Shown here: positions 40,201 through 43,200 of the stretch, in pieces
How the letters are laid out: each line of letters begins with the position of its first letter
Numbering within the stretch: position 1 is the stretch's first letter
NCBI GenBank assembly: GCA_051362555.1
Contig: CM120649.1
Coordinates: forward strand, 10,912,001 to 10,976,000
Direction: 5' to 3'
DNA length: 64,000 nucleotides
From: Lingula anatina
Lineage: Eukaryota > Animalia > Brachiopoda
The notes under the pieces: generated by a model
What the model was told of the DNA's origin: nothing
Database searches by the model: none
What the model saw: only the letters and a program-made list of their open reading frames with translations
Made by a program: the position numbers and the translations under genes

Positions 40201-43200
40201 ACCAGACTTTTGTAAATCTTCTTAAACATGATGACTGAAGCTCCCTTTTGAATTTGTCTGCTGGCAATTCTTATATAATTATGAGAACCATTGTTGCATC
40301 CTTCCATACGTACCTTGGGGCTCTGTGATATCACATTAACTATCGCTTGGCAAATCGGGCTCGTGGGCAATGCATTATTAAGTACTCAGAATCTAAATCT
40401 TTCTTCTCCAGCTCTTGTGCTATCTGGTCTGAAAGCCACAGGGACATACTACAGTCCATACAGTGTACGTCGAGCTATAGAGAACACAGCACAGCATATA
40501 GAGAGTATGGAGAGGTTTGCACAGGGACATGGCATGTTACAGGTAGGAGGTTATAATAGTAGGAATAATGATAATTATGATGATAATAGAAATTGTAATA
40601 ATGAGGAATATTTTATTTAAAGTCTAAAATCCATTAAATGTTCAGTAGACTTAACATAGAAAGAGACAATACTTAGAAATACAAATTATTATCAAGATCT
40701 GAAAACTATAAAATACCTTGTGATTCTAGATTAAAACAAATTTTTTACAGTGTGTTGGTATTGAAAGAAAATGTTTGCAGAGGCAAAGTCAAACTAAAAA
40801 CCAAAAAAGAAAATGCTACCTGCTTTCTCCTCGCTAAATCCTGACCTCCATATTTTACTCTCAGGTGGATGCTGCCTTTGAGCATCTCCTACAGCATGCA
40901 TCATGTTGCACACGGCGGATGAAGTTCACGGTGACTGGACCCTCTGGTACACGGGGCGTATACCTCAGAGAGTGGGCCCAGTTAACCAGACCACAGGAGG
41001 TGGCCGTCACTGTAGAACCTAGTTATATAGACCCTTCTACTGGTGAGAATAACAGTATTGTCTTTATTGTGCTCTTTTTACAGGACTTAATAGTGGAACT
41101 TTTGTATGCAGGGTAATAAATTGAATTTTAGTTAAAAGAGGCCCAGTCATCCAGGAGAAAACTCATGAAAATTAGGACCATATTTTTATTGATTCATGTT
41201 AACCGTTTTGTGTAAGTCTCACCACCAAACCTTCTTGATGTTGCTGTAAATAAGATTCCCTAAAAATGAAAGTATGGTCTGAAATAATTTTCATGAGCTT
41301 CATCACTGTGATTATTTACAGATCCAAGTTATTTAAGCTTTTTTTGTTTTTGTTTTGTTAAAAAAATTGTTGGTGTTACAGTATGTAAGTTTTCATTTTG
41401 AAATGCTTTCCATGAAATTCTGTATTTCAATTTTTTCAGATCAGCATGAAAAGATCCAGTTTATGCTGAGGTTCAATCTTATCTGTGATGCCTCTTATGT
41501 AGAAGTCCCATCCCATTTTGAACTCAATAATTCTGCGCGGGCTATATCTGTAAAGGTGGACCCGCGGGGGCTGACACATGGCGTACATTACACTGAGGTA
41601 AAGTTAATTACACTAAGTGCTTTCTTTCTCTGTCTCCCTCTCTCTTTCTCTCTTTCTCTCTACGCATATACACAGACGCGTTGATGCTTATACCTGTGTT
41701 TCATGAATGAAGTCAAATACCAGATTTTTCGCGTGCATGCATGTGTATGCATGTGTCATATTCTTGTGTGTATGCATGTGTCATATTCTTGTGTGTGTAG
41801 TAGAAAAATGGGTTTCCACATGTTAGTAGGTAAATTGAGGTCTTTAAGTGTGCCCCCTAGTAAGTAATGTTCATTAGTTGCCCATTGATGCTGTTGTCAT
41901 GGACATAAGTTTAAATGCTTTGAAAATATGAATTTCTATTTGATGATGATGATTGCACTTATAGAAATGTTATTACTCACTTAATACTGCTGTCCTCTAG
42001 GTGCTGGCCTATGATGTCACATGTCCAGTCAAAGGTCCTGTCTTCAGTGTAATTAGTTGTATATAGAAATGTTATTACTCACTTAATACTGCTGTCCTCT
42101 AGGTGCTGGCCTATGATGTCACATGTCAAGTCAAAGGTCCTGTTTTCAGAGTAATTAGTTGTATATAGAAATGTTATTACTCACTTAATACTGGTGTCCT
42201 CCAGGTGTTGGCCTATGATGTCACATGTCCAGTCAAAGGTCCTGTCTTCAGTGTAATTAGTTGTATATAGAAATGTTATTACTCACTTAATACTGCTGTC
42301 CTCTAGGTGCTGGCCTATGATGTCACATGTCCAGTCAAAGGTCCTGTTTTCAGAGTAATTAGTTGTATATAGAAATGTTATTACTCACTTAATACTGCTG
42401 TCCTCCAGGTGCTGGGCTATGATGTCACATGTCCAGTCAAAGGTCCTGTTTTCAGAGTAATTAGTTGTATATAGAAATGTTATTACTCACTTAATACTGC
42501 TGTCCTCCAGGTGCTGGCCTATGATGTCACATGTCCAGTCAAAGGTCCTGTCTTCAGAGTAATTAGTTGTATATAGAAATGTTATCACTTAATTAATACT
42601 GGTGTCCTCCAGGTGCTGGCCTATGATGTCACATGTCCAGTCAAAGGTCCTGTCTTCAGAGTAATTAGTTGTATATAGAAATGTTATCACTTAATTAATA
42701 CTGGTGTCCTCCAGGTGCTGGCCTATGATGTCACATGTCCAGTCAAAGGTCCTGTCTTCAGAGTAATTAGTTGTATATAGAAATGTTATCACTTAATTAA
42801 TACTGGTGTCCTCCAGGTGCTGGCCTATGATGTCACATGTCCAGTCAAAGGTCCTGTCTTCAGAGTACCTGTTACTGTGATCATCCCTGAACCGTGAGTT
42901 ATAATAATAATAATAATAATAACAATAATTATAATTCATGCATGGAGTATTCCATAAAACTTGGTGATAGCATTTTAAAAACACTGAAAATAAATAGAAC
43001 TTTATGAAATATCTTATTTATTTACAGCTATGTACAGATAATACAACATTTTCACTGATTTTCTAGATATCTGTAAGATATAATCATAGTTTAAATTCAT
43101 GTTGTAATTTTTTTTCTTATTTTGCTTATTTGTAAACCCCATCTTGCAGGGTTCAAGACACAGTCAACTTCAGGGTGGAGTTTTCCAATCAGCAGTTCAA

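What the first reader, a model, noticed from the sequence alone, without database searches (positions are those of the whole stretch)
41960..42893. TPP2 carries an array of eight extra, splice-competent, in-frame 48-nt mini-exon copies
Seen: each 102-bp unit has a branch-point-like TACTCAC/CTTAAT, a pyrimidine stretch, a YAG acceptor, the first 48 nt of exon 15 ([16 protein letters not shown], exactly 16 codons, phase 0), then GTAATT. The exon's own Val codon GTA therefore becomes a GT donor at each repeat junction, leaving 54-nt spacers bounded by GT...AG. Only copy 9 continues into the real exon ([10 protein letters not shown]). Copies differ in coding sequence: copies 1 and 3 end FS, copy 2 has P>Q, copy 5 has A>G. 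Read-through of a spacer hits TAG, so intron retention would truncate the protein. Inference: either the spliceosome skips eight near-identical acceptors to reach the ninth, or it includes 1-8 symmetric mini-exons, giving TPP2 isoforms with variable 16-aa repeats. This would be a snapshot of exon/intron birth by tandem duplication inside a conserved housekeeping gene.
Basis: partly seen in the sequence, partly recalled or inferred. Interest (0 to 1): 0.8.

Follow-up and report, generated by a model that had tools for sequence, protein, structure and literature searches.

The report
Silent splice-acceptor minisatellite in brachiopod TPP2
In a lamp shell's TPP2 protease gene the end of an intron plus the start of the next exon is repeated eight extra times, but the spliced RNA reads examined carry only one copy, so this is likely a harmless, variable repeat of a kind already known from lancelets and a human gene, not a source of new protein forms.

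Summary
The array is real: nine 102-bp units (41960-42867) copy the intron 14/exon 15 edge of Lingula TPP2. The repeat junction is present in DNA contigs of two studies, with different unit types, so it is a variable minisatellite; the count of nine is unverified. RNA from three studies shows exon 14 joined to one copy that runs on into real exon 15 (47 and 9 listed reads, 2 more read from depth bins). No copy-to-copy joint was listed. Only one of these RNA samples is shown to carry the array, by one unspliced fragment. The would-be donors lack both -1G and +5G (0 of 28 real donors do), the 54-nt spacers are far below the gene's shortest intron (196 nt), and the 16-aa segment keeps its length in 32 of 33 homologues. 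Best reading: the copies are removed with intron 14, probably by exon definition. This matches amphioxus 'mirage' minisatellites and human CBS 844ins68. The scan already found this kind elsewhere in this genome. Low-level inclusion is not excluded. Interest low.

The parts
41960..42867 (+). 102-bp tandem array, 8.9 units, spanning the intron 14/exon 15 boundary of TPP2
   Evidence: junction also in DNA contigs of runs X1 and X7
41440..41597 (+). TPP2 exon 14, donor GAG|GTAAAG, phase 0
   Evidence: gene model; RNA joints 41041>41439 and 41595>41999
42001..42048 (+). copy 1 of the first 48 nt of exon 15 (TAG acceptor, ends FS)
   Evidence: same unit type in X7 contigs
42103..42150 (+). copy 2 (TAG acceptor, P>Q)
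42205..42252 (+). copy 3 (CAG acceptor, ends FS)
42307..42354 (+). copy 4 (TAG acceptor)
42409..42456 (+). copy 5 (A>G)
   Evidence: same variant letter in an X1 contig
42511..42558 (+). copy 6
42613..42660 (+). copy 7, identical to the real acceptor region from -112 to +51
42715..42762 (+). copy 8, identical to the real acceptor region from -214 to +51
42763..42816 (+). 54-nt spacer (one of eight): GT...AG, 13-nt junction filler plus 41 nt of intron end, in-frame TAG
   Evidence: bridged by X7 contig 42732-42805 and one X14 RNA fragment 42756-42863
42817..42893 (+). true TPP2 exon 15 (77 nt), donor ACC|GTGAGT
   Evidence: reads run through to exon 16
43150..43256 (+). TPP2 exon 16

Best explanation
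The array is a variable minisatellite that copies the intron 14/exon 15 edge of Lingula TPP2, and its eight extra copies are likely removed as part of intron 14, leaving a normal mRNA. Shown: the anatomy; the junction in DNA of two studies with different unit types; one copy in all spliced reads seen. Inferred: (1) it began as one 102-bp tandem duplication, possibly by repair with a templated filler, and grew and turned over by unequal crossing-over or slippage; (2) the last acceptor wins because only it is paired with a good donor 77 nt downstream (exon definition), since copies 7 and 8 are identical to it from at least -112 to +51 and cannot be told apart locally; (3) any use of an earlier acceptor meets a TAG 21 codons in and would be cleared by nonsense-mediated decay; (4) the array is close to neutral.
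For: RNA: exon 14 joined to a copy in 32 (X11), 9 (X17), 2 (X14) reads; reads leaving the 48-nt part go into real exon 15 in 47 (X11) and 9 (X17); no back-joint, no copy-specific letter and no spacer depth listed in X11 or X17; no 42762>42817 joint and no depth on copy 8's first 38 nt in X14. X14 has one sense, unspliced fragment across a junction, so that sample carries the array, and its one exon 14-15 fragment is normal (bins reproduced 14 of 14). DNA: X7 contig bridges the junction with 31+43 letters; X1 has 7 short contigs on the unit, one of a type not among the window's nine. Donor lacks -1G and +5G, 0 of 28 real donors do; shortest real intron 196 nt. Segment length constant in 32 of 33 homologues, inside the Ig-like domain 521-636; R630 kept in 32 of 33 but changed in copies 1 and 3. 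RefSeq models carry one copy. Same outcome reported for amphioxus mirages (PMC3087553) and CBS 844ins68 (PMC2630376).
Against: X11 and X17, which give nearly all informative reads, are not shown to carry the array and differ from the window at many exon positions. Only 6%, 6% and 25% of the runs were read and joints under 3 reads are hidden: the 95% upper bound on inclusion is 6% (0 of 47 reads), 12% (2 of 49) or up to 22% if mates are counted as about 26 molecules. The matrix score of the pseudo-donor (3.4) lies inside the range of real donors (1.8-10.7; 4 of 28 score lower), so it is weak, not dead. 0 of 28 lacking both G's is not significant alone (about 2 expected if independent). The excess of amino-acid changes in copies (3 of 5, against 4 of 18 in true exons) is not significant (p = 0.14). 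The single X14 fragment may be a mis-spliced product rather than pre-mRNA. Exon definition and decay were not tested.
Confidence: 0.78

Rival explanations
1. Leaky but hidden: earlier acceptors are used at a real rate, the products keep a spacer, meet the TAG and are degraded, so long alleles make less TPP2 mRNA.
For: All eight earlier acceptors lead to a stop 21 codons in; copies 7-8 are locally identical to the real acceptor; X14's only intronic fragment in the stretches laid lies on the array.
Against: One fragment only, equally explained as pre-mRNA or DNA on a nine-fold target; no spacer depth in X11 or X17. CBS 844ins68 carriers make normal mRNA (PMC2630376, passage).
Confidence: 0.1
2. 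Mini-exon inclusion: some transcripts splice out the 54-nt spacers and include 1-8 in-frame 16-aa cassettes.
For: Geometry allows it: 48 nt, phase 0, AG and GT at each edge. The pseudo-donor scores within the low range of real donors. The deeper RNA runs may lack the array. PMC3087553 proposes such recruitment as a hypothetical route to new introns.
Against: No copy-to-copy joint listed in 3 of 3 runs; spacers 54 nt against a minimum of 196 nt in this gene; donors lack -1G and +5G; no homologue of 33 has a repeat here, one has +5 aa.
Confidence: 0.06
3. Stepwise (recursive) removal: exon 14 is first joined to an early acceptor, which rebuilds a donor (GAG|GTGCTG), and is then re-spliced onward to the last acceptor; the final mRNA is the same.
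For: Every acceptor is AG|GT; the rebuilt donor scores 5.2, above the pseudo-donor and near the exon 15 donor's 5.0.
Against: The same rebuilt donor exists at the normal exon 14/15 joint, yet reads run through exon 15 into exon 16. No intermediate was seen. The intron is short (1219 nt).
Confidence: 0.04
4. Assembly artefact: the array, or most of it, is not in the animal.
For: No record laid spans the whole array; X3 and X4 gave nothing on the stretches laid; no whole genome is held.
Against: The junction is in contigs of two studies and in one RNA fragment of a third; copy-1 and copy-5 variant letters recur in X7 and X1; units carry ten variable sites in an ordered pattern.
Confidence: 0.02

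Closest known systems
Amphioxus 'mirage' minisatellites (Adh3, globins BflGb6 and BflGb9, troponin C, PGBD5); PMC3087553 (abstract and passages read), PMC3902484 (one passage read)
   Same: Tandem copies of an exon-intron boundary; BflGb6 has the same layout (intron 3' end plus exon 5' part); splice signals in the units; normal splicing reported; unit number differs between haplotypes (6 and 3); blocks of alike neighbours.
   Different: Here a brachiopod; unit 102 bp, nine units; the exon part is a whole number of codons and is followed by GT, so in-frame inclusion is formally possible; in BflGb6 the boundary unit is excluded from homogenisation, whereas here the real exon's unit is identical to copies 7 and 8.
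Human CBS c.844_845ins68; PMC7490669 and PMC2630376 (passages read); Romano 2002 not held
   Same: Duplicates the last 52 nt of an intron and the first 16 nt of the exon; the downstream site is strongly favoured, the upstream copy is excised and mRNA is normal, which masks a missense change in the upstream copy, as R>S, P>Q and A>G would be masked here.
   Different: One extra copy, not eight; shorter exon part; mechanism tested there, not here.
Human F7 intron 7 37-bp VNTR; PMC1557585 (abstract read)
   Same: Minisatellite across an exon-intron boundary with several identical splice sites of which only the one next to the true exon is used.
   Different: Donor side, not acceptor side; there the pseudo-sites were shown to be functional when the true site is lost.
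Intron gain by tandem duplication of an AG|GT motif (Rogers model; ATP2A1); PMC3265369 (part 1 of 4 read)
   Same: Units hold AG|GT; redundant copies are removed and the protein is unchanged.
   Different: There purely exonic duplication creates a new intron; here the copies extend an existing intron and no new exon or intron was seen. That paper puts the minimal functional intron at about 60 nt (human context), above the 54-nt spacers.

Membership tests
mirage minisatellite | head-to-tail repeats whose unit spans an exon-intron boundary | tested here: met
mirage minisatellite | unit of minisatellite size (10-160 bp in the amphioxus cases) | tested here: met
   102 bp
mirage minisatellite | units keep AG/GT splice signals | tested here: met
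   nine YAG acceptors, eight GT after the exon part
mirage minisatellite | regular splicing is not disturbed | tested here: inconclusive
   all spliced reads normal in 3 of 3 runs, but carrier status shown only for X14, with one informative spliced fragment
mirage minisatellite | instability between haplotypes | tested here: inconclusive
   unit types differ between window, X1 and X7; contig depth ratios hint at fewer units but are not copy numbers
mirage minisatellite | concerted evolution: neighbouring units more alike | tested here: met
   copies 7-9 identical; adjacent distance lower than in shuffled orders, p = 0.039; modest
mirage minisatellite | somatic instability (Adh3) | not testable with these tools
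   needs single-molecule typing from one animal
tandem cassette exons (variable inclusion) | copies appear as separate exons in mRNA | tested here: not met
   no copy-to-copy joint listed; detection limit about 6-22%
tandem cassette exons (variable inclusion) | donors and intron sizes like the gene's own | tested here: not met
   no -1G or +5G against 0 of 28 real donors; 54 nt against a minimum of 196; matrix score alone does not exclude it
tandem cassette exons (variable inclusion) | copies under coding constraint | tested here: inconclusive
   3 of 5 variants change the amino acid against 4 of 18 in true exons, p = 0.14; one hits R630, kept in 32 of 33 homologues

The most novel reading that the evidence does not exclude
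In array carriers, in some tissue or stage, the 54-nt spacers are spliced as new micro-introns and TPP2 gains 1-8 in-frame 16-aa repeats in its first Ig-like domain, with the number set by a length-variable allele: a segregating, frame-preserving birth of exons and introns in a housekeeping protease, the step that the amphioxus mirage model only proposes.
Probability: 0.06. Interest if true: 0.6.

Novelty: new member of a known kind. Interest (0 to 1): 0.17.

Why it matters
As found, it matters little: one more splice-edge minisatellite that splicing appears to ignore. Its modest use is as a natural test piece: three acceptors identical from at least -112 to +51, of which only the last appears in mRNA, allow a clean test of exon definition against first-AG scanning in a brachiopod, and alleles of different make-up allow a test of whether such arrays cost expression. 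It also warns that gene predictors and variant callers may miscount this exon. If in-frame inclusion were shown in carriers it would be direct support for intron gain from mirages.

Tried and rejected
No whole genome is held, so no genome-wide count of donors, intron sizes or similar arrays was possible. DNA runs X3 and X4 laid nothing; the tool says this can be a filter effect, so it is not counted as absence. No RNA holder was listed by index; RNA runs came by species label. Copy number from contig depth (X7 junction/unit 0.59; X1 unit/flank 5.1) was not accepted as a count, because depths do not add up across X1's contigs and the tool disclaims it. RNA structure hiding the early acceptors: 42613-42910 folds no better than shuffles (z = -0.6). 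An AlphaFold model of the native protein (job) had not finished, so no structural model is used; only Pfam limits and the match to Drosophila TPP2, PDB 3LXU residues 632-653 (the short match is weak, E = 0.14). Syn/nonsyn contrast not significant. Literature: Romano 2002 not held; a search for VNTR + splice site + exon-intron boundary + each repeat found 0 papers; PMC11018521 passages were irrelevant; Lingula + minisatellite + exon + intron gave 1 unrelated paper and Lingula anatina + intron + genome + tandem repeat gave 22 papers, 20 listed, none on this by title or abstract start. So I found no print description for Lingula in those two searches; subscription journals and supplements were not seen. 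No earlier scan note lies near this place.

Full report
Observation. Tandem Repeats Finder gives one 102-bp array at 41960-42867, 8.9 copies, 97% matches, no indels. A script found nine 48-nt exon parts at 42001, 42103 ... 42817; copies 1-8 are followed by GTAATT and a 54-nt spacer whose frame reads into TAG at codon 6; copy 9 continues into the real exon. The gene is TPP2 of Lingula anatina or a close relative: exon 13 matches XP_023932445.1 at 98%, and a 29-exon model from the window gives 1248 aa with 6 differences from it. Exon 14 is 41440-41597, exon 15 is 42817-42893, exon 16 is 43150-43256. Intron 14 is 1219 nt, the longest in the gene; minus eight units it is 403 nt, within the 196-882 nt of the other 27. 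Both RefSeq models that could be read (2 of 3 cluster members) have a single copy of the 16 aa.

Is it in the animal? I laid 4 of 10 listed DNA holders. X3 and X4 gave nothing, which the tool says can be a filter effect. X7 (study P3) has a 74-nt contig over 42732-42805 that bridges the exon-part/spacer junction with 31 and 43 letters, and an 88-nt contig with the difference count and listed letters of copy 1. X1 (study P1) has seven short contigs on the unit: one crosses the junction with 40 and 27 letters (short of the tool's 31-letter rule), one carries the copy-5 letter, and one differs from the last unit at a single letter over 42764-42820, a type that is not among the window's nine, which differ there by 0, 4 or 5. 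Depth on the unit is several times that of the next intron in X1 (306 against 59), but depth is not a copy number. So the array exists in two studies and its make-up varies. No record spans it, so the number nine is unverified.

What does the RNA show? I laid 3 of 9 listed RNA runs, one per study, of which 6%, 6% and 25% was read. The reference held one unit only, so inclusion of several copies would show as a joint going back from 42048 to 42001. Exon 14 joined a copy in 32 (X11), 2 (X14) and 9 (X17) reads. Reads leaving the 48-nt part went on into real exon 15 and exon 16 in 47 (X11) and 9 (X17) reads. No back-joint was listed, none of the copy-specific letters was listed, and X11 and X17 had no depth on the intron part of the unit. 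On 42715-43257, where inclusion would show as a 54-nt skip, X14 had no such joint and no depth on 42715-42752. The X14 depth bins of both calls are reproduced exactly (14 of 14) by one normal exon 14-15 fragment plus one unspliced sense fragment at 42756-42863 that crosses a junction; this sample therefore carries the array, on the evidence of one fragment. Limits: joints under 3 reads are not listed; the 95% upper bound on inclusion is 6% for 0 of 47 reads, 12% for 2 of 49, and 12-22% if mates are counted as 24-26 molecules; X11 and X17 differ from the window at many exon positions and are not shown to be carriers; NMD was not blocked.

Are the mini-exons plausible? The acceptors are genuine copies: copies 7 and 8 are identical to the real one from -112 and -214 to +51. 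The donors are poor. All 28 real donors of the gene have -1G or +5G; AGA|GTAATT and AGT|GTAATT have neither. That these two positions compensate is recalled knowledge, and 0 of 28 is not significant alone. A matrix from the 28 donors scores the pseudo-donors 2.2-3.4, against 1.8-10.7 for real donors left out in turn, and 16% of 618 intronic GT sites score at least 3.4: weak, not impossible. The spacers are 54 nt against a minimum of 196 nt in this gene; a genome-wide minimum could not be had. The 16 aa (615-630) lie at the end of the first Ig-like domain (Pfam PF21223, 521-636). Residues 606-637 keep their length in 32 of 33 aligned proteins, one has +5 aa; D619, G626 and P632 are invariant and R630, changed to S in copies 1 and 3, is kept in 32 of 33. 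Three of five variants in the copies change the amino acid against 4 of 18 seen in true exons 13-14 (p = 0.14). The repeat RNA has no unusual fold (z = -0.6).

Mechanism. Most likely the copies are intronic. Because copies 7-9 cannot be told apart near the acceptor, choice of the last one has to come from downstream, most simply pairing with the ACC|GTGAGT donor 77 nt on (inferred). Use of any earlier acceptor gives a stop 21 codons in and would be degraded (inferred). Origin (inferred): one tandem duplication whose junction reuses the exon's GTA and adds a 10-nt filler, 8 nt of which match the intron at 41873 (3.9% of random 400-nt intron windows match as well; suggestive of templated repair only), followed by expansion and turnover; neighbours are more alike than in shuffled orders (p = 0.039). 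Rivals: hidden leaky use with decay (0.10), true inclusion (0.06), recursive removal through the rebuilt donor GAG|GTGCTG, score 5.2 (0.04), artefact (0.02).

Comparison with what is known. Before looking at earlier scan notes my reading was a multi-copy version of human CBS 844ins68, a duplication of 52 intron and 16 exon bases (PMC7490669, passages) in which the distal site is strongly favoured and mRNA is normal (PMC2630376, passages). Scan notes on other pieces of this genome (unreviewed, their loci not checked by me) named amphioxus 'mirage' minisatellites. I read the abstract and passages of PMC3087553: tandem copies of exon-intron boundaries in Adh3 and globins, BflGb6 with the same acceptor-side layout, 6 and 3 units in two haplotypes, no interference with splicing, and a hypothetical model of intron gain by recruiting a unit. 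PMC3902484 (one passage) adds PGBD5 and troponin C. Human F7 intron 7 is the donor-side counterpart (PMC1557585, abstract). The Rogers/Hellsten model concerns purely exonic duplications (PMC3265369, part 1 of 4). The array meets the structural features of a mirage; 'splicing undisturbed' and 'length instability' are supported but not closed. Two searches found no description for Lingula in the library; supplements and subscription journals were not seen.

Verdict. New member of a known kind, already met several times in this genome by the scan. Interest 0.17. The in-frame geometry leaves a small chance (0.06) of real inclusion in carriers, which would deserve about 0.6.

Noticed in passing
window 43333-43354: A second, donor-side copy: the last bases of exon 16 and its AG|GT donor (43237-43258) recur 96 nt downstream at 91% over 22 nt, behind a (TAA)20 run. 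The four X14 reads that leave exon 16 use the true donor at 43256. It was the only other exon edge of 56 with a 16-of-20 match in the adjoining intron.
   Followed up: partly
window 40865-41597: RNA runs under one species label differ from the window at many exon positions (18 listed in 336 nt); X17 has 13 of them, 9 not listed in X11 or X14, which suggests a distinct lineage or very high diversity.
   Followed up: partly
window 50004-50182, 50836-51015, 51135-51214: Three further small duplications just past the TPP2 stop codon (87 bp x2 tandem, 37 bp twice 143 apart, 39 bp x2 tandem): short duplications are common here, away from splice sites too.
   Followed up: no
window 41742-41796 and 35588-35681: A 25-bp x2.2 repeat in the unique part of intron 14 and a 26-bp repeat family ending 16 nt before the exon 3 acceptor; neither includes exon sequence.
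   Followed up: no
window 30500-34100, minus strand: A multi-exon gene for an apparently coiled-coil protein lies head to head with TPP2 (start 34236), judged from the sequence and frames; not identified.
   Followed up: no
window 41873-41880: Eight letters of the 10-nt junction filler match the intron 80 nt upstream of the array, a possible templated insertion (chance 3.9%).
   Followed up: partly
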